A stretch of 52,011 nucleotides of DNA, from the UHGV virus genome UHGV-1352696; one strand, given 5' to 3'. A program made the translations under genes and the position numbers. Source of the stretch: a virus. The notes beneath the pieces were generated by a model. It was not told the DNA's origin, searched no databases, and worked only from the letters and a program-made list of their open reading frames with translations. Positions within the stretch are counted from its first letter, which is position 1; each line of letters begins with the position of its first letter. Shown here in pieces: positions 5,206 through 39,302 of this stretch.

Positions 5206-5508
5206 TTACATTTTACTCTGTTGGATTGCTTTCTGAATAATCTGTCTTGCTTCTCTTACATTTTTAGCTTTTGAAGTATCAATGTTATGTTTCTCTGCAT
5301 ACTCCATAAGCTGTTCTTTGTTCATTTCAGAAATCGGAATTGTATCAACTGGATCATCTTCTTCAATCTGTTCATCTTCTACAATATCATCAATGTTCTG
5401 TTTATTTTCATCAACAATAACATAACCATTCTTTTTGAACATTGTTTCATATGAATTGCGACTTACCTTAACAGTATGCTCACCTTTCATAATTTTAACC
5501 ATTGCCAT
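5206..5508 (-). CDS. Acidic protein with a Rho_N/SAP-like helix-hairpin motif (EQLMEYAEKHNIDTSKAKNVREARQIIQKAIQ)
   Basis: 100 aa. The motif is shared with ORFs 22935..23627, 39319..40167 and 41981..42625. Confidence 0.5.
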   Translation of the reverse strand: MAMVKIMKGEHTVKVSRNSYETMFKKNGYVIVDENKQNIDDIVEDEQIEEDDPVDTIPISEMNKEQLMEYAEKHNIDTSKAKNVREARQIIQKAIQQSKM

Positions 5509-5523
5509 GTTATCTCCCCCTTA

Positions 5524-6558
5524 CTAAGCAATTACATCAAGAATATATACTTGGTCTGCTGTTGGGAAATCCGGCAAACAAATCATTGTTACTTTTGTTT
5601 CAACGTTTACCGGGTCAACCTTTGTCATTGTTGTAACTGCTACTCCTGTATCTGTAATAGACACATTTGCAACATTACTTGACATAAGGTCTGACTCTTC
5701 CGGTGTTGTACCAAACCATGTGTTTCCGAGTTTTCCTGTTGGGAACATAACAAAAACATCTTCTGGAACATATCTCTGAACTGCTCCCTCTTCATCTTTG
5801 TATCGTTTGTCATATACTACAATATCAATTCCGAGTTCATCTTTAATGAACTGTTTAACTTTTGCATCTGATACAAAACCAACACCATCTGTAAGAACAT
5901 AGATAGATTTCTTAATTTCTGTATTTGCTCTGATATATCCGAACACCTTTGAAGAACATACCGCTCTTTCAACTGTTACGCCAGTATCATCAACGATTTT
6001 TGTAATTCCTGTTCTGATATCATCAAGGATTGTTGCTGACGGGTCACTCCAACTCTTTGTTACTGTTACTTTATGGCTTTCATCTACACCATAATCATAC
6101 TCATAAACCTGTCCATTTCCTTTCATAGAAATTGTTCCTGTAGTAAGCATCATCATTCTCATACGCTCTCTCTGTGCAGAAGCACCCTCAAGAAGTTCAA
6201 CCTCATCTGCAAAGATTCTATTTACGATAGCATCAATGTATGCTTGGTTTCCACTCTCAATGATTTTGTTAAGTTCCTGTCTTAACTCTTCATCAATGTA
6301 CTTGGACTCTTTGAAGAATGGCATGTCTGCGCTTAACTTCTCAAATCCAATTCTCGGTCTTGGAATAGCCTGTACATCAAACGCTGATGCTTTCAAAACT
6401 ACTGGAAGTCCATTAGAACCTTTCAACCATTTAAGCGTGAGTCCGAGTTTCTTATCATTTGGGAAAAGTTCCTCTCCTAAATATGGATCTCTGTCCTGTT
6501 GTAACAATTCCCAGTATGATGTAATTTCAGAACTAATAATAAGGTCATAAATTGTCAT
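5524..6558 (-). CDS. Major capsid protein, lambda gpE-like family
   Basis: 344 aa (lambda E is 341 aa). C-terminal FPTGKLGNTWFGTTPEE resembles lambda E LPDNTMVLGNTQARGLRTYG. Follows a D-like decoration gene, as in lambda. Confidence 0.75.
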   Translation of the reverse strand: MTIYDLIISSEITSYWELLQQDRDPYLGEELFPNDKKLGLTLKWLKGSNGLPVVLKASAFDVQAIPRPRIGFEKLSADMPFFKESKYIDEELRQELNKIIESGNQAYIDAIVNRIFADEVELLEGASAQRERMRMMMLTTGTISMKGNGQVYEYDYGVDESHKVTVTKSWSDPSATILDDIRTGITKIVDDTGVTVERAVCSSKVFGYIRANTEIKKSIYVLTDGVGFVSDAKVKQFIKDELGIDIVVYDKRYKDEEGAVQRYVPEDVFVMFPTGKLGNTWFGTTPEESDLMSSNVANVSITDTGVAVTTMTKVDPVNVETKVTMICLPDFPTADQVYILDVIA

Positions 6559-17260: not shown

Positions 17261-17332
17261 TGGACTATATAGGAATCGAACCTATTACTCTTCGCTTATG
17301 AGGCGACTGTTCTACCAATGAACTAATAGTCC
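17261..17332 (-). tRNA. tRNA-Met (anticodon CAU; could be initiator or elongator Met, or a lysidine-modified Ile2 tRNA)
   Basis: Minus-strand read GGACTATTAGTTCATTGGTAGAACAGTCGCCTCATAAGCGAAGAGTAATAGGTTCGATTCCTATATAGTCCA. 7-bp acceptor stem GGACTAT/ATAGTCC. T-arm ATAGG-TTCGATT-CCTAT. Anticodon loop CTCATAA. No encoded CCA. Confidence 0.8.
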
Positions 17333-17419: not shown

Positions 17420-17491
17420 CTACCTAGGTTGGATTCGAACCAACGAATGCAGGAGTCAAATTCCTGTGCCTTACCACTTGGCTACTAGGCA
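17420..17491 (-). tRNA. tRNA-Gln (anticodon UUG)
   Basis: Minus-strand read TGCCTAGTAGCCAAGTGGTAAGGCACAGGAATTTGACTCCTGCATTCGTTGGTTCGAATCCAACCTAGGTAG. U1-A72 acceptor pair as in bacterial tRNA-Gln. Anticodon stem CAGGA/TCCTG with loop ATTTGAC. T-arm GTTGG-TTCGAAT-CCAAC. Confidence 0.8.
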
Positions 17492-33525: not shown

Positions 33526-34446
33526 TCACTCTAACATTTCCTTGTACTTTTTCTTATGTTCATCCATGATTTCTTTTCTAACAGAATCAAGGTCTGCAAA
33601 ATCAACAAAACCGCGTTCATAGAATAATGGGATTTCACAGCTCTGCATTGGTGGGTTTACTTTTGACTTAACAACTTTTACTTTCATAATCATTCCAATT
33701 CTTTCTTTTGTTTCTGTGTTGAATGGGTTATGGTTAGGGATTTCAATATACCCTTTTCTTGCTACTTGAATTTTAAGTGAAGCCGCATGTGATAATTTAT
33801 GACCACCAGGAGTTTTAATGTTGTCTCCGAAAGGTAATGCATTCATTTTATCACGAATCTGATTAATAAACACAACTGTCGTTCCTGTTTGTTCAATGAT
33901 ATACTCTAATGTTGGTAAATACTTATCCATGAGCCTTGCTACACCACCGATTCGCATTTCTTGTTCACTGTCTGTATTTACCGCCTTTCTAACCTTGTCA
34001 ATATCATCTTTTGGCTGTAATGATGGCACACTATCAATCATAATTAACGGAATACCCTCTTCCGCAAACCTTATGGCTCTATTAAATGCCTTTTCTCCAT
34101 ATGGTGCTCTATATATAATCATTTGTTTTGGTCTGTTACCGAACAACTTCGCTCTTTCTGTTGATAGCGTTCCCTCCACAGGTTCAACAAGACATAACTC
34201 ATGCTGGGCGCATAGCTGATATCCTAATGTTGTTTTTCCTGCACTCTCTGCTCCAAAAATTTCAATGATTCTTCCTTTTGGCATTCCACCGCCAATAATA
34301 TTATCAAGGTCAACAAGCCCTGTACTCCATCTTGGAATGTCCAAATCTGCTGTTTTCTTTCCTAGACTGTAAACACTTCCCTTTTCCTTTTTGTCAATCT
34401 CTGCAATCAATTTTAAAATTCCATCTTTATTAGTTGCTTTTGCCAT
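33526..34446 (-). CDS. RecA-family recombinase (phage Sak4/UvsX-like)
   Basis: Walker A GIIEIFGAESAGKTTL. Walker B hydrophobic-D stretch IPLIMIDSV. Confidence 0.75.
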   Translation of the reverse strand: MAKATNKDGILKLIAEIDKKEKGSVYSLGKKTADLDIPRWSTGLVDLDNIIGGGMPKGRIIEIFGAESAGKTTLGYQLCAQHELCLVEPVEGTLSTERAKLFGNRPKQMIIYRAPYGEKAFNRAIRFAEEGIPLIMIDSVPSLQPKDDIDKVRKAVNTDSEQEMRIGGVARLMDKYLPTLEYIIEQTGTTVVFINQIRDKMNALPFGDNIKTPGGHKLSHAASLKIQVARKGYIEIPNHNPFNTETKERIGMIMKVKVVKSKVNPPMQSCEIPLFYERGFVDFADLDSVRKEIMDEHKKKYKEMLE

Positions 34447-34906
34447 ATTCTTTTAATGCTCCTTTTACTAATTCTTTTATCGTTTCCGCTTTTTCATCCG
34501 GCAGTTTTATCCACTCTTTATCATTTGTTAGGTCTGTATACTTCTCAAGATACCACATTGCTTTCTTCAAATCCTCTAATCTGTTTTTATATTTATGTCT
34601 CCACAAATACTTATACGCATTTACAATGCAATAAATTGCTACGTCCATGTCTCCGAATGCTATTCGCATTGTATCTATGCATTCAATGCTTGTTCTTTCT
34701 TTGTAGTGGTCTGGATTTATGTTATCATGTTTGTTTGTTTCTGTTCTTTTCATATCTGCTTTCTCCTTTTCAATAGTAGGTGCTTTCGACACTTCCTCTC
34801 TCACTTTATTTGTTATTACGTCACAAAAAAATATTGAATTACACTCTCTCCCTTTTGCTGTGCATATTCCATCATTTTCATACTCGCAACCTCCACATCT
34901 ATCCAT
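34430..34906 (-). CDS. DUF3310-family phage protein
   Basis: NPDHYK...IECIDTMRIAFGD...AIYCIVNAYKYLWRHKYKN...DLKKAMWYLEKY. N-terminal Cys cluster. Confidence 0.7.
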   Translation of the reverse strand: MDRCGGCEYENDGICTAKGRECNSIFFCDVITNKVREEVSKAPTIEKEKADMKRTETNKHDNINPDHYKERTSIECIDTMRIAFGDMDVAIYCIVNAYKYLWRHKYKNRLEDLKKAMWYLEKYTDLTNDKEWIKLPDEKAETIKELVKGALKEYGKSN

Positions 34907-34911
34907 TTATT

Positions 34912-36438
34912 TCACCTCGCCATTAATGTACTATTATATTTTACAACTCTGCTCATATATTTGTTTTTATTAAATTCAAGTGCACCCTGTTCTTTTAATG
35001 TTTTAATTACTCCTTTTGTAACACTTCTTCCTTTGCATCTATCATAGAAATCATCATAAGACTTAAATACACCCTTTCTGCGCTCTTCTTCTATGGTTTC
35101 TGCGGCTTTTTCTCCAATACCCTTAATAATACTCAACCCTTGCTGTATAACGTCCTCTCCATCCATTTTACGCAATGAAGTTTTAGCTGAATAGTTTACG
35201 TGTGGTAACATAACCACAGCACCATCTTTTACTGCAAACTGTGAATATTTAAAGATATCTGCATCATTATCTGCATACTTCATTTTAACATACCAAAACT
35301 GTGTTGGGTAATGTACTTTGTAAAACATCTGGTCAATACTTATTAACGCATAGCCAGTGCTATGTCCCTTGTTGAAGCCATAGATTAGCATACTCGCCCA
35401 TATGCTATTTGTTTGTTCTTTTGTTAATCCCTCTTTTTTACATCCTATAAAGAAATCTTTTTTCATTTGTTCAATGATTGGAATATACTCCGACTTTGTT
35501 AAGTTCTCTGCTTTCTTCATAATCTTTAACATATCAAAACTTTGTTGCGCTGTTAAATGTCCAACCTTTTGTGCTACTTCAACTGTTTGCTCTTGGTATA
35601 ACATTGTTCCATATGTTTCTTGCGTATATTTATAATATGGTGTATTCTTATCTACTTTATCAGAAAGTTTGTTATGTGCATACGTTTCATGCATATGCAA
35701 CTGTAGTGGTGCTGGCCTGTTTAATGCGTTCACCGCTATAATATCATTTATGCAATCACACTGAATCATATCAAGAATCTTTTTAGGTGCTGACTTTTCC
35801 ATCTGAAAAATCCCATCTGTTCTTCCATCTCTGAATCCCTCTATAACCTCTTTGCTTTCTTCATCTTCTTCTGTTATTGTATGTCCTGTTTTCTCTCTAA
35901 GCTCACGCATTTCTGACATTGTTTTAAGTCCAAGCATATCAAACTTTACACAATTAATATGCTCTAAATCATCTTTATCAAAACAACTGCTTAATGCTCC
36001 TGTCTTTCTATCTCTCATGATAATACAAGTATAATCACTTATATCTGTTCCAACCACAGCAACCCCAGCCGAATGTTTTCCAAGGTACTTTATTTTACCA
36101 TAAAGTTTTGAAAAATGTTTTATAATGTTGTCATACTTTTCATTAAACTCTTCTGTTCTGTATCCATTCAATAAATTACTCATATTCAGCTCATCATCTA
36201 CTATGAATCCCTTAATATATGACTTAATTTCTGCAATAACTTTTTTATTTTCATCTGCTTCAAACCAATCAACATCTTTTGTTGTTTTTAAGTTACAAAC
36301 ACTTGCCAAATCATTCACAAGATTATCAACTCCATACATACCATAAGAACAAATTTGTATTGCTTTGTTTGGATATTTGTTTATAACATAATCAATTACT
36401 TCCTGTCTCCTATCTCGTTCGAAATCTAAATCAATATC
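34912..36438 (-). CDS. dnaE: DNA polymerase III alpha (DnaE-type), exon 2 (starts ...DIDLDFERDRRQEVIDYVINKY...)
   Basis: Motifs DIDLDFERDRRQEVIDYV, KFDMLGLKTM and FNKGHSTGYALISIDQMFYKVHYPTQFW match the DnaE polymerase core. The in-frame region upstream of the listed ATG restores the DIDxDF catalytic motif. Confidence 0.85.
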   Translation of the reverse strand, partial: DIDLDFERDRRQEVIDYVINKYPNKAIQICSYGMYGVDNLVNDLASVCNLKTTKDVDWFEADENKKVIAEIKSYIKGFIVDDELNMSNLLNGYRTEEFNEKYDNIIKHFSKLYGKIKYLGKHSAGVAVVGTDISDYTCIIMRDRKTGALSSCFDKDDLEHINCVKFDMLGLKTMSEMRELREKTGHTITEEDEESKEVIEGFRDGRTDGIFQMEKSAPKKILDMIQCDCINDIIAVNALNRPAPLQLHMHETYAHNKLSDKVDKNTPYYKYTQETYGTMLYQEQTVEVAQKVGHLTAQQSFDMLKIMKKAENLTKSEYIPIIEQMKKDFFIGCKKEGLTKEQTNSIWASMLIYGFNKGHSTGYALISIDQMFYKVHYPTQFWYVKMKYADNDADIFKYSQFAVKDGAVVMLPHVNYSAKTSLRKMDGEDVIQQGLSIIKGIGEKAAETIEEERRKGVFKSYDDFYDRCKGRSVTKGVIKTLKEQGALEFNKNKYMSRVVKYNSTLMAR

Positions 36439-37261
36439 CTACCTTAGTCGTTCGTTTCCAAACTATCAAGGCTAGACTATATCTTCCACTATTGTGGCAT
36501 TCGCACTTCGGAATGGTGCTTATCTCCATTCCTACACTTGTTACTCTCTTCGCAAGCTAGTCGTTACACCTTTCTATACGAACATTTCCATAAACTAGAT
36601 GTTTATGTAACATTGTTCTTTTAACATTGTAGTGTTTTTCTGCATATTCCACAGCTTCCGTTATACTTAGAAATTCATCTATCAATTTATTTCCAACATA
36701 CAATTTACATGGTCTATAATTTCTGAATGGTGTATCTTTTCTTCTCTCATATCCATACTTCAAATTGTCTGCTTGCTTACACCATCTAAGATTTTCATAA
36801 TAGTTGTTCTTTACATTTCCATCTATGTGGTCAACAACTAGCTTTGGTTTGTATCCTTTGCAAAAATATTTTGCTACTGCTCTATGTATTGACAAATGTT
36901 TTGTTATATTGTTCTCACATGGCTTTACATACAAATAACCTCCACTTCCAACATAAGGTTTTAATATATTTCCTGTTTTCTCGTTTAAAACATTTCCATA
37001 TTCATCTATTGAATGGTGGTCAAACTCTTCCATACTTTTAAACATCTAATTCACTTCCTTTCTATATAGACTTGGCACGGTATTCCCTCTATCTCACCGT
37101 CACTGGTTTAGGGTTTCTTAGTCAGATTATTCGTCTATGGTCTATGCCCTATTATCTTGTTGTAACATTTCAATAAGGAGTCTTATTTTTCTGATACCGT
37201 TAGCATATTATAATAATACACACCATTAAGCAATGTTCACGAATGATGCCCAATTAAGTTT
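36439..37261 (-). ncRNA. Group I self-splicing intron (about 823 nt) interrupting dnaE, with an HNH endonuclease ORF in a peripheral loop
   Basis: Exon 1 ends in U (..UCAUUGCCU). The intron ends in G (..GACUAAGGUAG). R-like element GACUAA at 37118-37123 and S element AAGAUAUAGUCU at 36474-36485. Splicing joins KKSLP to DIDLDF, restoring the conserved DnaE motif. Confidence 0.8.
36557..37045 (-). CDS. HNH homing endonuclease (intron-encoded)
   Basis: VVDHIDGNVKNNYYENLRWCKQADN (H-N-H motif). Lies entirely inside the intron. Confidence 0.8.
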   Translation of the reverse strand: MFKSMEEFDHHSIDEYGNVLNEKTGNILKPYVGSGGYLYVKPCENNITKHLSIHRAVAKYFCKGYKPKLVVDHIDGNVKNNYYENLRWCKQADNLKYGYERRKDTPFRNYRPCKLYVGNKLIDEFLSITEAVEYAEKHYNVKRTMLHKHLVYGNVRIERCND

Positions 37262-38455
37262 AGGCAATGACTTCTTTTCCTTTCTCATAAATCTACTAAA
37301 ATCAAGATTATATTTTATGCTGTCTACTTCTGTGATTCCTACTGCATAAGCTACAAGACAATTACAAACAGAGCCTCTTCCCTTTCCTGTTTCAATTCCA
37401 TTTTCTTTCGCCCATGTTATGTAATCTCTAACAATAAGGAAATAATCTGCAAAACCGTGGTAATTAATTACTTCTAATTCTTCTTTGCATCTTTTCCAAT
37501 ATTCTTTGTTCCACTTGTTTCTGTTTTTCAATCCCTGCTTTGTTAGTGTTTCAAGTTGTTTCGCTCCATCTTCTGATATTTTAGGAAGTTCTAGTTCCAA
37601 TCCATCTAATATGTTATCTTCGACTTTGTTATATATTTCTTTCATGTTATCTGCAAATCGTTCTGCCATTCCCATTGGTCTTTTGAACTTCTTTTTATAG
37701 ATGTTTGCAAACCTTTCTGTTATCTCATACTCTGTAGGCATGTACCTTTCACTGTATGTTCTTTTTACATCCAATGTTGTTTTTCCTATTTCATGCATTT
37801 TACAATATGTATCGAAATCTTCCTTACTTCCAAAATGTGAGTCACTTGTTAGAATACATTTAATATGTTTTCTTCTTGCCATTCCCATAAGTTCATAATC
37901 TGTTCTTTGTTGTGTACCCTGTGCATCTATCTTATATGGCTGTATTTCAACATATAAATCATCTTTGAATATTTCCTTGAACTTATCTAACAAACGCTCT
38001 GCTGTGCTTCTATGACCATTTAAAATAGCTTGTGACGTTGCGCTTGCTATACAAGCTGTTGTACATATAAGTCCATCTGAATACTTTTCTAACAACTTAA
38101 AATCAACTATTGGTTTGTAATAAAATTGCTTTGTATTTGCTTCTGTCATTATGTGACACAAGTTTTTATACCCCTGTAAGTTTTTAACAAACAAGTTTAA
38201 GTGGTACGATTTCCTTTGCGGATTTTTTTTATTAAATTTTGGTTGAAAATATATTTCACATCCCATAACAGGTTTTATTCCAACTTCATTACACGCTTGA
38301 TAATGTTTTATTAATCCACTAATTGTTCCATGATCGCTTATTCCTAATGCTCTGTAGCCTAATTCCTTTGCGTGTTTTGCAAGATTTATAGACTTTCCAA
38401 ACCCATCAAATAATGAATACTCCGTGTGCCTGTGTAAATCAAAAAAATTACCCAT
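37262..38455 (-). CDS. dnaE: DNA polymerase III alpha (DnaE-type), exon 1 (PHP domain through ...KKSLP). The listed ORF continues into the intron until a stop at 37226.
   Basis: N-terminal PHP motif DLHRHTEYSLFDGFG. GRGSVCNCLVAYAVGITEVDSIKYNLDFSRFM matches DnaE GRGSAAGSLVAYALGIT...FERFL. Confidence 0.85.
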
Positions 38456-39302
38456 TCAACAAACGCTCCTTTCCATATTCACACTGTTCTTTGTCTATCT
38501 CACTACAAATACATTTTATGTTTCTGTTCTCCATTTTACAAGCGACAGCTGTTGTACACGTTCCTGCAAATGGGTCATACACAGTGCTATTATCTCTAAC
38601 ATACATGTTAAGTAAATTTGCAACCATTTCAATACTAAATGTTGCACCATTATATTCATTCTTTCCATCATTGTTCTTTGCTTCAAAATAATTGAACATA
38701 TTACTATAAGATGTATATACCTTTCCTTGTATTTCTCTCTTATTTGATTTAAAAGTACAATACCCTTTTTCTCTACATAATACGAATATATATTCGCATA
38801 TCCTTGTACATTTATTTTTGTTTCTATTGTTTGGCAATGCATTTTTCTTCTTCCAACAAACAATATCCGCAACTTCTAACTGTAAATTAAAACATATATT
38901 CAATATAGTTCTTAGCATTTTAGTTGCTGTTGCTCCAGTTTCTACGTTTGTGGCATAACTCATATTTAGTAATATTACACCGTCTTTTTTTAACACAGAT
39001 AAACAACCACTTAATACATCCTGTAAAAAATCTTCATATTTATTCCAATTTAATGTATCATCATAACATTTATATAATTTCTCTCTATTTTTTAACTGTC
39101 TTTGTTTATCACCAGTTCTTCTGCTTCTGCTTATGTTATACGGTGGACTTGTTATCACACAATCAACTTTAATTCCCTTTTGTTTCATATGTTTTATTGT
39201 TTTCCTACAATCTTCGCTACGAATTATGTATCTTTTCGTTTCTTTCATTTCCTTACACCTCATATTATAATAAAAGGGTTGAACTATGCCAACCCCAACC
39301 AT
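38448..39302 (-). CDS. DNA methyltransferase (beta-class amino-MTase: motif IV SPPY before motif I)
   Basis: DCVITSPPYNISRSRR (motif IV) ... VYDPFAGTCTTAVACK (motif I). Confidence 0.75.
   Translation of the reverse strand: MVGVGIVQPFYYNMRCKEMKETKRYIIRSEDCRKTIKHMKQKGIKVDCVITSPPYNISRSRRTGDKQRQLKNREKLYKCYDDTLNWNKYEDFLQDVLSGCLSVLKKDGVILLNMSYATNVETGATATKMLRTILNICFNLQLEVADIVCWKKKNALPNNRNKNKCTRICEYIFVLCREKGYCTFKSNKREIQGKVYTSYSNMFNYFEAKNNDGKNEYNGATFSIEMVANLLNMYVRDNSTVYDPFAGTCTTAVACKMENRNIKCICSEIDKEQCEYGKERLLNG

What the first reader, a model, noticed from the sequence alone, without database searches (positions are those of the whole stretch)
36439..37261. Group I intron with an HNH homing endonuclease splitting the phage dnaE gene just before the DIDxDF catalytic motif
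The dnaE gene is in two pieces.
- Exon 1 (38455-37262) ends ...KKSLP.
- Exon 2 (36438-34912) begins DIDLDFERDRRQEVIDYV..., which restores the universal DnaE PDIDIDF motif only after precise excision of 823 nt.
- Exon 1 ends in U and the intron ends in G.
- The intron has a textbook S element (AAGAUAUAGUCU at 36474-36485) and an R-like GACUAA (37118-37123).
- The peripheral ORF 36557..37045 has an H-N-H motif.

An intron at a catalytic-site codon of an essential polymerase fits the usual homing pattern.
Basis: partly seen in the sequence, partly recalled or inferred. Interest (0 to 1): 0.75.

Follow-up and report, generated by a model that had tools for sequence, protein, structure and literature searches.

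The report
Group I intron splitting phage dnaE
The phage's replicative DNA polymerase gene (dnaE) is interrupted, just before its two catalytic aspartate codons, by a very probably self-splicing group I intron carrying an HNH homing-endonuclease gene; this is a real but ordinary kind of mobile element in phages.

Summary
The finding holds. On the minus strand, dnaE is split into 38455-37262 and 36438-34912 by an 823-nt insert (37261-36439). Removing it joins Pfam DNA_pol3_alpha profile position 102 to 103 and restores ...SLP|DIDLDF..., which aligns without a gap to E. coli Pol III alpha P400-D401-x-D403.

The insert cannot be an intein: its length is not a multiple of 3 and its read-through frame has many stops. 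It has a full group I fold: P1 with a U.G pair at the 5' splice site, P3 to P9 with P7.1/P7.2, and a terminal G. Across 15 distinct relatives, 98.2% of modelled pairs form, against 80.1% in shuffles (0/500), and 20 of 37 pairs change on both sides. The guide sequence changes together with the exon in different host genes.

Near-identical phages carry the same intron without the ORF. Other phages read straight through the site. The ORF (37045-36557) is an I-HmuI-like HNH endonuclease lying in loop L6.

Two corrections:
The true R is GGUGUAACGACUAG at 36570-36557.
- Rfam RF00028 does not detect this subfamily, although it detects the Twort introns.

Verdict: a new member of a known kind. Splicing itself is inferred, not shown.

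The parts
37262..38455 (-). dnaE exon 1 (398 codons: PHP domain and the first part of the Pol III alpha palm); ends ...KKSLP, last base U
   Evidence: Pfam PHP E 1.2e-44 and DNA_pol3_alpha profile 2-102/260; translation
36439..37261 (-). group I intron, 823 nt (IA2-like, without P2, with two hairpins after the P3 5' strand)
34912..36438 (-). dnaE exon 2 (508 codons plus stop); begins DIDLDF, the equivalents of E. coli D401 and D403
   Evidence: Pfam DNA_pol3_alpha 103-260/260, finger domain, HHH_6; gapless alignment to 2HNH across the junction
37247..37266 (-). P1: exon UGCCU (37266-37262) pairs with guide GGGCA (37251-37247); U.G pair at the splice site; 3 bp of P10 possible between UUA-type bases 5' of the guide and exon 2 GAU
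   Evidence: sequence; exon/guide co-variation across host genes, own 5.45/6 vs 3.55/6 for other exons after re-optimisation; coordinates
37238..37245 (-). P3 5' strand CAUUCGUG
   Evidence: pairs 8/8 with 36505-36498; 13 different variable 5-mers, each with its own complement
37224..37235 (-). hairpin hpA (P3.1-like) CAUU-GCUU-AAUG; holds the UAA (37228-37226) that stops the exon 1 read-through frame
37203..37221 (-). hairpin hpB (P3.2-like) GUGUAUU...AAUAUGC
   Evidence: 100% of cells paired, 4 of 6 pairs changed on both sides; folds in all lineages
37195..37202 (-). J3/4 (UAA) and P4 5' strand ACGGUA
   Evidence: 6/6 pairing in all members, C-G to U-A compensation in L007/L032
37083..37194 (-).
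   Evidence: folds as UCAG...CUGA plus a second hairpin in every member with a long P5; the hexamer is at chance level
37074..37084 (-). Q element AAUACCGUGCC (P4 3' strand UACCGU and the start of P6)
   Evidence: close to the Rfam consensus AAuCCGCAGCC shown
37065..37070 (-). P6 5' strand UCUAUA
   Evidence: pairs with 36578-36573; the homologous stem has different sequences in other lineages
36557..37045 (-). HNH homing-endonuclease ORF (162 aa) in L6, with RBS AAAGGAAG at 37061-37054; its last codons and UAG stop lie in J6/7 and the P7 5' strand
   Evidence: Pfam HNH_3; PDB 1U3E I-HmuI E 2.1e-14; PHROG 59 E 1.5e-25; intact in 7 relatives, synonymous changes outnumber non-synonymous in the more diverged ones
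36573..36578 (-). P6 3' strand UAUAGA
36557..36570 (-). true R element GGUGUAACGACUAG (J6/7 and P7 5' strand A[C]GACUA with a bulged C)
   Evidence: unique in the window; P7 6/6 in all members, outer pair A-U / G-C / C-G; 21-nt 90% match to Twort I3
36537..36556 (-). P7.1 hairpin CUUG...CAAG
36510..36532 (-). P7.2 hairpin GGAAUGG-AGAUAAGCA-CCAUUCC
   Evidence: all 7 pairs changed on both sides across the family
36498..36505 (-). P3 3' strand UGCGAAUG
36486..36497 (-). P8 hairpin CCAC-AAUA-GUGG
   Evidence: a hairpin at this position in every lineage, with different sequences
36474..36485 (-). S element AAGAUAUAGUCU (J8/7 and P7 3' strand)
   Evidence: the 10-nt core is identical in all three Twort introns
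36439..36472 (-). P9 (GCCUU/AAGGU enclosing GUUUG-GAAA-CGAAC) followed by the terminal G at 36439
   Evidence: relatives keep a GAAA-capped P9 with different stems

Best explanation
An 823-nt group I intron (IA2-like) sits in the phage dnaE gene between the Pro codon and the first catalytic Asp codon.

**Splicing (inferred from the fold)**
- In the pre-mRNA the intron folds.
- Its guide GGGCA pairs with the exon end UGCCU, giving a U.G pair at the splice site.
- A free guanosine bound in P7 attacks after U37262.
- The released exon 1 then attacks after the terminal G (36439).
- The ligated mRNA encodes a continuous 906-aa Pol III alpha.

**Mobility (inferred from homology)**
- Loop L6 carries a separately translated I-HmuI-type HNH endonuclease.
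- It would nick or cut intron-less dnaE alleles of co-infecting relatives at this conserved site.
- Repair would then copy the intron in (homing).

**Shown here:** the exact junction, the RNA fold with covariation, ORF-less and intron-less alleles, and the endonuclease homology.

**Inferred:** the splicing chemistry, the endonuclease activity and its target.
For: **1. Junction**
- The Pfam DNA_pol3_alpha profile breaks exactly at 102|103.
- The spliced protein aligns without a gap to E. coli Pol III alpha across ...SLP|DIDLDF..., equivalent to M-P400-D401-F-D403.
- Dulem virus 36 (68% identity) and Agathobaculum phage AB434P2 (47%) read straight through the site.

**2. Not protein splicing**
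- 823 nt is not a multiple of 3, and the read-through frame has many stops.
- The exon 2 frame is closed by UAG immediately upstream, and its first possible start codon is 33 codons downstream.

**3. RNA fold**
- P1, P3, P4, P5, P6, P7 (with a bulged nucleotide), P7.1, P7.2, P8 and a GAAA-capped P9 are all present.
- So are the Q (AAUACCGUGCC), R (GGUGUAACGACUAG) and S (AAGAUAUAGUCU) elements and a terminal G.

**4. Covariation**
- 98.2% of cells pair, against 80.1% in shuffles (0/500).
- 20 of 37 pairs change on both sides.
- Sliding the partner by 1-3 columns gives 29-48%.
- The five variable P3 pairs score 4.73/5 with their own partner and 2.36/5 with swapped partners.

**5. Guide sequence follows the exon**
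- UGCCU/GGGCA, UACCU/GGGUA, CUCGGU/GCCGAG, CUAGGU/GCCUAG, GGGUGGU/GCCACCC, AAUGGGU/GCUCAUU.

**6. ORF-less relatives**
- L025, L029, L031 and L033 have the same intron at the same site.
- Core identity to the window is 193/197 and 134/141, with a 7-bp hairpin in place of the ORF.
- The unconstrained MFE fold of L025 recovers P3, P4, P5, P6, P8 and P9.

**7. Known relatives**
- The same architecture occurs in the S. thermophilus phage S3b lysin intron, annotated 'group I intron' in GenBank.
- From Q to S the layout matches Twort I2/I3 element by element, and Rfam scores those at 97-101 bits.

**8. Endonuclease**
- I-HmuI homologue with its own ribosome-binding site.
- Intact in 7 relatives, with synonymous changes outnumbering non-synonymous ones in the more diverged of them.

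**9. Transcription unit**
- No terminator-like site and no excess of promoter-like sites inside the interruption.
Against: - Rfam RF00028 gives no hit at any threshold. This holds for the window, for its halves, for ORF-less relatives and for the most compact member. The same model scores the Twort introns at 64-101 bits.
- My explanation for the miss is that this subfamily lacks P2, has two hairpins between the P3 5' strand and J3/4, and has a long P5 extension. That is plausible but not proven.
- hpA is weak in the window itself (no stable fold on its own).
- P10 is only 3 bp in the window.
- There is no RNA or cDNA evidence. Some phage introns do not self-splice in vitro yet splice in vivo (PMC11878797), so autonomous catalysis is not guaranteed.
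Confidence: 0.93

Rival explanations
1. The core is a decayed or host-factor-dependent group I intron. The RNA derives from a group I intron but no longer self-splices efficiently, or at all, so dnaE expression depends on a helper or is impaired.
For: - No hit with the general Rfam model.
- P10 is short and hpA is marginal in the window.
- PMC11878797 reports phage introns that splice in vivo but not in vitro.
Against: - All core helices are intact, and they are kept by compensatory changes across many lineages.
- dnaE is the only Pol III alpha gene seen in this replication module, and both exons remain open and conserved.
- Near-identical introns persist in at least 12 related contigs.
Confidence: 0.05
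2. The gene is a split dnaE with a free-standing HNH gene between the halves. The two halves are made as separate proteins, or joined by split inteins as in the 'fractured genes' of PMC2677866, and there is no RNA splicing.
For: - GenBank annotates the CS266P1-4 homologues as two hypothetical proteins plus a DNA endonuclease.
- Fractured genes with an endonuclease gene between split-intein halves exist and include dnaE (PMC2677866).
Against: - Exon 1 runs only 11 codons past the junction.
- Exon 2 is closed by UAG directly upstream, and its first start codon lies 33 codons inside, so it would lose both catalytic Asp residues.
- There are no intein N or C segments.
- The break falls in the middle of a Pfam domain.
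- ORF-less relatives still keep a 343-nt structured insert.
- The RNA helices covary, which a mere spacer would not do.
Confidence: 0.01
3. The insert is an intein or another in-frame protein insertion.
For: - Inteins are common in DnaE.
- Phage G gp329 appears to carry one at a different site, GRG|C...HN|S.
Against: - 823 nt is not divisible by 3.
- The read-through frame contains many stops.
- The HNH ORF has its own ribosome-binding site and start codon; it lies in the exon 1 reading frame but is separated from exon 1 by many stop codons.
Confidence: 0.005

Closest known systems
[quoted passage not shown]
   Same: - Same order of elements: P1, then an NNNNN-GUG P3 5' strand, AAC, two hairpins, UAA, P4, Q AAUACCGUGCC, P6, R GGUGUAACGACUA, P7.1, P7.2, GAAG plus the P3 3' strand, P8, and S AAGAUAUAGUCU.
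- Also missed by Rfam.
- Also has ORF-deleted derivatives, according to the paper's title.
- From my memory of the abstract, mRNA splicing was demonstrated; the paper is not held here.
   Different: - The host gene is lysin, not dnaE.
- The endonuclease ORF (orf253) lies in L8, not L6.
- The P5 region is short (18 nt against 112 nt).
Staphylococcus phage Twort orf142 introns I1-I3 (AF132670). From my own knowledge they are proven self-splicing and a crystal structure of the Twort ribozyme exists.
   Same: - Identical P7 and S sequences (ACGACUA / GAUAUAGUCU).
- GCCAAG[stem]AAGGUG(C/U)AACGACUA across P6 and J6/7.
- P7.1 and P7.2 lie between P7 and the P3 3' strand.
- P9 is GAAA-capped.

   Different: - Twort has P2 between P1 and P3, and its P3 5' strand abuts J3/4.
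- Here there is no P2, and two hairpins separate P3 from J3/4.
- Twort I2 and I3 have no ORF.
- Twort is detected by RF00028; this family is not.
Bacillus phage SPO1/SP82 DNA polymerase intron encoding I-HmuI / I-HmuII
   Same: - A group I intron in an essential phage DNA polymerase gene, carrying an HNH endonuclease of the same family (PDB 1U3E, E 2e-14).
- Homing there is started by a nick (Landthaler et al. 2004, listed in the references of PMC7685451).
   Different: - The SPO1 polymerase is a family A (Pol I-type) enzyme, not DnaE.
- No detectable nucleotide similarity between the introns (SPO1 is absent from the hits).
- The window ORF is 162 aa. Only its residues 9-97 align with residues 11-99 of the 174-residue I-HmuI chain; the C-terminal part did not align in this search.
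Unpublished or unannotated dnaE introns at the same site: Clostridium phages CS266P1-4, Bacillus phage G (gp329/gp330), Enterococcus phages EF1/EF5
   Same: - Same insertion point ...LP|D(I/V)D and the same intron family.
- The EF1 ORF is annotated 'HNH homing endonuclease # Phage intron'.
   Different: - About 70% nucleotide identity or less.
- Phage G carries a GIY-YIG ORF instead of an HNH one.
- The CS266P records annotate no intron.

Membership tests
Group I intron | P1 helix between the 5' exon end and an internal guide sequence, with a U.G pair at the 5' splice site | tested here: met
   UGCCU|...GGGCA with U37262.G37251. The guide co-varies with the exon in 6 or more exon contexts; own exon 5.45/6 vs 3.55/6 for other exons after re-optimisation.
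Group I intron | Intron ends in G (omega G) directly before the 3' exon | tested here: met
   G at 36439. All 10 relatives with a mapped 3' junction also end in G.
Group I intron | Conserved core: P4-P6 and P3-P8 domains, with the P3/P7 pseudoknot and a bulged P7 (guanosine-binding helix) | tested here: met
   P3 97.5%, P4 100% and P7 100% of cells paired, with compensatory changes; whole structure 98.2% vs 80.1% in shuffles, 0/500. P6 and P8 hairpins are present in every lineage.
Group I intron | Conserved sequence elements P/Q/R/S | tested here: met
UAACGGUAUC, AAUACCGUGCC, GGUGUAACGACUAG and AAGAUAUAGUCU, in the right order; R and S are unique in the window.
Group I intron | Match to the curated covariance model Rfam RF00028. 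This is a detection criterion, not a defining property. | tested here: not met
   No hit at the gathering threshold or at E<=10 for the window, its halves, ORF-less L025 or compact L015. Positive control: Twort scores 64-101 bits. The annotated S. thermophilus intron is also missed.
Group I intron | Guanosine-initiated two-step transesterification giving ligated exons | not testable with these tools
   Needs RT-PCR or an in vitro splicing assay.
Group I intron | Excision restores an intact, conserved host gene | tested here: met
   Pfam profile 102|103; gapless alignment to 2HNH; intron-less homologues.
Subgroup IA2 (phage-type) | P7.1 and P7.2 hairpins between the P7 5' strand and the P3 3' strand | tested here: met
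   36556-36537 and 36532-36510; all 7 P7.2 pairs are compensated.
Subgroup IA2 (phage-type) | Canonical 5' layout P1-P2-P3-J3/4-P4, as in Twort or T4 | tested here: not met
   There is no P2 (1 nt between the guide and P3), and two hairpins lie between P3 and J3/4. P2 and P3.1 are listed as optional pairings (PMC3873408), so this is a variant and not an exclusion from group I.
HNH homing endonuclease, I-HmuI family | HNH (His-Me finger) catalytic motif with the I-HmuI-type N-terminal region | tested here: met
   Pfam HNH_3 residues 54-94; 1U3E alignment 9-97 vs 11-99 with VVDH.DGN..NN...NLRW conserved; PHROG 59.
HNH homing endonuclease, I-HmuI family | Encoded within a loop of a self-splicing intron | tested here: met
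   The ORF lies between the P6 strands; ORF-less relatives have a 7-bp hairpin there.
HNH homing endonuclease, I-HmuI family | Site-specific nicking or cleavage of the intron-less allele, and homing | not testable with these tools
   Only indirect support: the same site is occupied in distant phages, and ORF-plus, ORF-less and intron-less alleles all exist.
Intein | In-frame insertion translated together with the host protein | tested here: not met
   823 nt is not a multiple of 3; stops in the read-through frame.
Fractured gene (split inteins plus an endonuclease gene) | Intein N and C halves fused to the two gene fragments, each with its own translation start | tested here: not met
   Only 11 extra codons after exon 1; no start codon and no extension before exon 2.

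The most novel reading that the evidence does not exclude
This intron belongs to a widespread phage subfamily of group I introns with three shared features: no P2, two P3.1/P3.2-type hairpins between P3 and J3/4, and IA2-like P7.1/P7.2. The standard Rfam model missed every member tested here, whole or in part, including ORF-less and compact members. If so, such introns are systematically left unannotated, as in Clostridium phages CS266P1-4. The ...LP|DID codon boundary at the Pol III alpha catalytic aspartates would then be a homing hot spot shared by phages of Clostridia, Bacillus and Enterococcus, with HNH and GIY-YIG cassettes exchanged within the same ribozyme loop.
Probability: 0.4. Interest if true: 0.4.

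Novelty: new member of a known kind. Interest (0 to 1): 0.27.

Why it matters
- **Annotation.** The two 'hypothetical proteins' flanking an endonuclease gene in this phage, and in the GenBank relatives CS266P1-4, are one replicative polymerase. The gene should be annotated as a joined CDS.
- **Detection method.** The general Rfam group I model misses an entire phage subfamily, so a missing covariance-model hit cannot be used to reject a candidate intron.
- **Biology.**
  - The find adds a DnaE-type polymerase to the phage replication genes known to be colonised at catalytic-site codons.
  - It provides natural ORF-plus, ORF-less and intron-less alleles.
  - HNH and GIY-YIG cassettes occupy the same loop, which is useful material for studying the gain and loss of homing-endonuclease genes.
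- **Limit.** None of this changes current understanding of group I introns.

Tried and rejected
- **Rfam searches, all eight used.** No Intron_gpI hit for:
  - the whole window at the gathering threshold;
  - 36300-37400 and the 5' half alone at E<=10;
  - five annotated relatives;
  - ten loci with ORF-less or short-ORF members of the family at the gathering threshold;
  - L025 and L015 alone at E<=10.

  The positive control worked: Twort was detected.
- **First explanation for the miss was wrong.** I first blamed the ORF in a loop, but ORF-less members are missed too. I then attributed the miss to the different 5' layout. That explanation is not tested.
An early version of my script also picked the P5 CUGACUA as R, giving 5/6 P7 pairs. 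The correct R gives 6/6 in all members.
- **Early P3 candidates rejected.** I tried GGUGU with the L7.2 loop AAGCAC, and UGC with GC(G/A). Neither covaried or paired consistently when the strands were read across members (sequences). The NNNNN-GUG / YGC-NNNNN pairing did.
- **Rivals rejected.** Intein, fractured gene with split inteins, and two separate genes.
- **Other introns in the window.** A regex scan for further S-like elements found no convincing second site.
- **Literature.** Foley et al. 2000 (PMC111580) could not be read. No held paper was found that describes an intron at this DnaE site.
- **Not done.** I built no covariance model of my own. The anchor-registered covariation test made it unnecessary.
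Full report
**1. What is in the sequence**

- Everything relevant lies on the minus strand. An ORF from 38455 encodes a PHP domain and the first part of the Pol III alpha palm. It reads ...RKEKKSLP and then runs on for 11 codons (KLNWASFVNIA) to a UAA at 37228-37226.
- From 36438 a second reading frame starts directly with DIDLDFERDRRQ... and runs to 34912. The triplet immediately upstream in that frame is UAG, and the first possible start codon is 33 codons inside.
- Pfam places exon 1 on DNA_pol3_alpha profile positions 2-102 and exon 2 on 103-260, followed by the finger and HHH_6 domains.
- Joined at 37262|36438, the protein is 906 aa. It aligns without a gap to E. coli Pol III alpha (2HNH)...KKSLP-DIDLDF... 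lies over ...RVSMP-DFDVDF....
- Counting back from chain residue 416, the two aspartates are E. coli D401 and D403. From my own knowledge these are two of the three catalytic carboxylates.
- The insert is 823 nt, not a multiple of 3, and its read-through frame holds many stops. Protein splicing is therefore excluded.
- The neighbourhood is a replication module on the same strand: N6/N4 DNA methylase, dnaE, DUF3310, RecA.
- Inside the interruption there is no terminator-like site and no excess of promoter-like sites.

**2. Relatives define the junction independently**

- A blastn search of phage records found Clostridium phages CS266P1-4 with the same three-part layout at about 70% identity. 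They are annotated as two hypothetical proteins plus 'DNA endonuclease I-HmuI'.
- The search also matched the 5' part of the insert alone in Bacillus phage G (gp329 'DnaE-like', gp330 'homing endonuclease') and in Enterococcus phages EF1 and EF5 ('HNH homing endonuclease # Phage intron').
- All of these break at the same point...LP|D(I/V)D.
- Dulem virus 36 (68% protein identity) and Agathobaculum phage AB434P2 (47%) read straight through...CCC|GATATTGAT and ...CCT|GATATTGAT.

**3. The Rfam problem**

None was obtained in any of six attempts on this family. These covered the window, its halves, ORF-less relatives and the most compact member.
- The control shows this is not general insensitivity to phage introns. 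RF00028 scores the three Twort orf142 introns at 100.9, 97.4 and 63.6 bits.
- RF00028 also misses the S. thermophilus phage S3b and ST3 lysin introns, which GenBank annotates as group I.
- PMC11878797 states that the Rfam and GISSD models may fail on phage variants.
- I therefore tested the fold directly.

**4. The fold**

- A scan of viral contigs with the conserved 5' motif GTGAACMTTGCTNAAKGGTGT returned 32 loci.
- Four of them (L025, L029, L031, L033) have near-identical exons and the same insert but no ORF. That insert is 343 nt, and the ORF is replaced by the hairpin CAUAUAC-AGUA-GUAUAUG.
- Reading the members side by side gives this order in the window (coordinates):

| Element | Window sequence | Coordinates |
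|---|---|---|
| P1 | exon UGCCU with guide GGGCA | 37266-37262 / 37251-37247 |
| P3 5' strand | CAUUCGUG | 37245-37238 |
| hairpin hpA | CAUU-GCUU-AAUG | 37235-37224 |
| hairpin hpB | GUGUAUU...AAUAUGC | 37221-37203 |
| J3/4 and P4 5' strand | UAA, ACGGUA | 37202-37195 |
| P5 and 112-nt extension | UCAG...CUGA | 37194-37083 |
| Q | AAUACCGUGCC | 37084-37074 |
| P6 | UCUAUA with UAUAGA, enclosing the ORF | 37070-37065 / 36578-36573 |
| R (J6/7, P7 5' strand) | GGUGUAACGACUAG | 36570-36557 |
| P7.1 | CUUG...CAAG | 36556-36537 |
| P7.2 | GGAAUGG-AGAUAAGCA-CCAUUCC | 36532-36510 |
| P3 3' strand | UGCGAAUG | 36505-36498 |
| P8 | CCAC-AAUA-GUGG | 36497-36486 |
| S (J8/7, P7 3' strand) | AAGAUAUAGUCU | 36485-36474 |
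| P9 | GCCUU/AAGGU around GUUUG-GAAA-CGAAC | 36472-36441 |
| terminal G | G | 36439 |

- From Q to S the layout matches Twort I2 and I3 element by element. P7 and S have the same sequence as in Twort, and a 21-nt stretch around R is 90% identical to Twort I3.
- The unconstrained MFE fold of the ORF-less L025 intron recovers P3, P4, P5, P6, P8 and P9.

**5. Covariation**

- P3 pairs 7-8 of 8 in every complete member. There are 13 different variable 5-mers, each with its own complement. With their own partner they score 4.73/5, with swapped partners 2.36/5.
- I extracted only those strands whose register is fixed by sequence anchors, not by pairing. These were P3, hpA, hpB, P4, P7 and P7.2 from 15 distinct members, aligned without gaps.
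- The pair-counting tool gave the following:
  - 98.2% of cells paired, against 80.1% in column shuffles (0 of 500 reach the observed value);
  - 20 of 37 pairs with changes on both sides;
  - a covariation score of 0.528 against 0.153;
  - 29-48% paired when the partner is slid by 1-3 columns.
- The outer P7 pair, next to the bulged nucleotide, is A-U, G-C or C-G in different lineages.
- P6, P7.1, P8 and the P5 extension form hairpins at the homologous positions with unrelated sequences.

**6. The guide sequence follows the exon**

- At the dnaE site: UGCCU/GGGCA in the window, phage G and EF1. CS266P1 has UACCU/GGGUA, where a synonymous Leu codon change is compensated in the guide.
- In a second clade the exon ends ...ELG. 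It has CUCGGU/GCCGAG and CUAGGU/GCCUAG.
- In other host genes: GGGUGGU/GCCACCC, AAUGGGU/GCUCAUU and CAUGGGU/GCUCAUG.
- The best guide match is 5.45/6 for the intron's own exon. It is 3.55/6 for other exons, even after re-optimising the guide position.
[quoted passage not shown] Together with the core fold, the U.G pair and the terminal G, I take it as decisive.

**7.

- GACUAA at 37123-37118 is not R. CUGA there pairs with UCAG directly after P4 (this is P5), and CUAAGA is a conserved joiner. The hexamer alone is below chance frequency in the window: 8 found, about 23 expected.
- The ORF lies in L6. Its last five codons (RCND, stop) are J6/7 and the P7 5' strand.
- The family lacks P2, and two hairpins follow the P3 5' strand. 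P2 and P3.1 are recognised optional pairings (PMC3873408), so this is a variant layout within group I. The S. thermophilus lysin intron shares it.

**8. The endonuclease**

- The 162-aa ORF has a ribosome-binding site (AAAGGAAG, 8 nt before the AUG).
- It matches HNH_3, PHROG 59 and I-HmuI, PDB 1U3E (E 2.1e-14). The VVDH-DGN--NN---NLRW motif is conserved.
- It is intact in seven ORF-bearing relatives. Synonymous codon changes outnumber non-synonymous ones in the more diverged of them, for example 22:7 and 23:10.
- Against ORF-less L025, the ribozyme core is 193/197 and 134/141 identical and the exons are 94-96% identical. The only real difference is a cassette of about 485 nt, flanked in the window by a 10-nt direct repeat, TATAGAAAGG.
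- In other phages the same loop of the same intron family holds GIY-YIG ORFs or decayed remnants.
- This is the familiar cycle of gain and loss of homing-endonuclease genes.

**9. Mechanism, and what is inferred**

- Shown: the junction, the fold, the polymorphisms and the homologies.
- Inferred from established group I chemistry: guanosine attack at U37262, then exon ligation after G36439.
- Inferred from I-HmuI (Landthaler et al. 2004): nicking of intron-less alleles and homing during co-infection.
- Two translation-related details are also inferences. The exon 1 reading frame stops inside hpA, so ribosomes would disrupt only P1 and P3 transiently. Translation of the HNH ORF must unwind P6 and P7, so endonuclease synthesis and splicing are probably mutually exclusive on a single RNA molecule.

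**10. Novelty and score**

- Group I introns with HNH endonuclease genes in phage DNA polymerase and other replication genes are well known (SPO1, Bastille and others; PMC11878797).
- The same-site dnaE introns already sit in GenBank records, partly annotated.
- This is a new member of a known kind in an uncultivated phage whose closest GenBank relatives are Clostridium phages at about 70% identity.
- The mildly interesting extras are the Rfam blind spot for this subfamily, the shared homing site at the catalytic aspartates across phages of Clostridia, Bacillus and Enterococcus, and the natural ORF-plus and ORF-less pairs.
- Interest 0.27. Confidence that this is a group I intron spliced at the stated junction: 0.93.

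Noticed in passing
window 17261-17332 and 17420-17491 (minus strand): Two tRNA genes, Rfam tRNA 65.1 and 62.2 bits.
   Followed up: no
window 37066-37057 and 36578-36569: A 10-nt direct repeat, TATAGAAAGG, brackets the HNH cassette. ORF-less relatives have a short hairpin there. This may mark how the cassette was inserted or is lost.
   Followed up: partly
window 38448-39302 (minus strand): An N6/N4 DNA methylase gene (Pfam E 9e-32) overlaps the dnaE start by 8 nt. DUF3310 (34430-34906) and RecA (33526-34446) follow dnaE.
   Followed up: partly
L003 (Bacillus phage G) gp329, aa ~467-713: The same dnaE also holds an in-frame insertion of about 245 aa, GRG|CFVPG...VHN|SAAGS, which looks like an intein at the GRGS motif. 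That gene would then carry both an intein and the group I intron, here with a GIY-YIG ORF (gp330).
   Followed up: partly
L002 3767-4915 (Dulem virus 36); L004 ~5476-6465 (Enterococcus phage EF1): There is a second interruption hot spot in phage dnaE at ...NKGH|S.GY. Dulem has a LAGLIDADG-like ORF there. EF1 has a GIY-YIG ORF and an S-like AAGATATAGTC at 6414. The window gene is uninterrupted at that site.
   Followed up: partly
L009 / L023, upstream of the family motif: Two group I introns lie about 29 nt apart. An S-like element and a 3' end sit just before a mini-exon, ATATGAACC...CTGGGT, and the next intron then begins.
   Followed up: no
window 37125-37114 and the homologous positions in L003, L006, L007, L009, L010, L019, L024, L035: A conserved CUGACUAAGA(G/A)A motif follows P5 in every member with a long P5 extension. 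Its role is unknown; it could be a tertiary contact.
   Followed up: no
L001 (Clostridium phages CS266P1-4, OP172775-8): The GenBank records annotate the two dnaE exons as separate hypothetical proteins and do not mark an intron.
   Followed up: yes
L015 (IMGVR_UViG_3300026522_000001), L014 / L037: The same intron family also sits in other, unidentified host genes, with matching guide sequences. In L015 the endonuclease-like ORF follows P7 at the 3' end instead of lying in L6.
   Followed up: no
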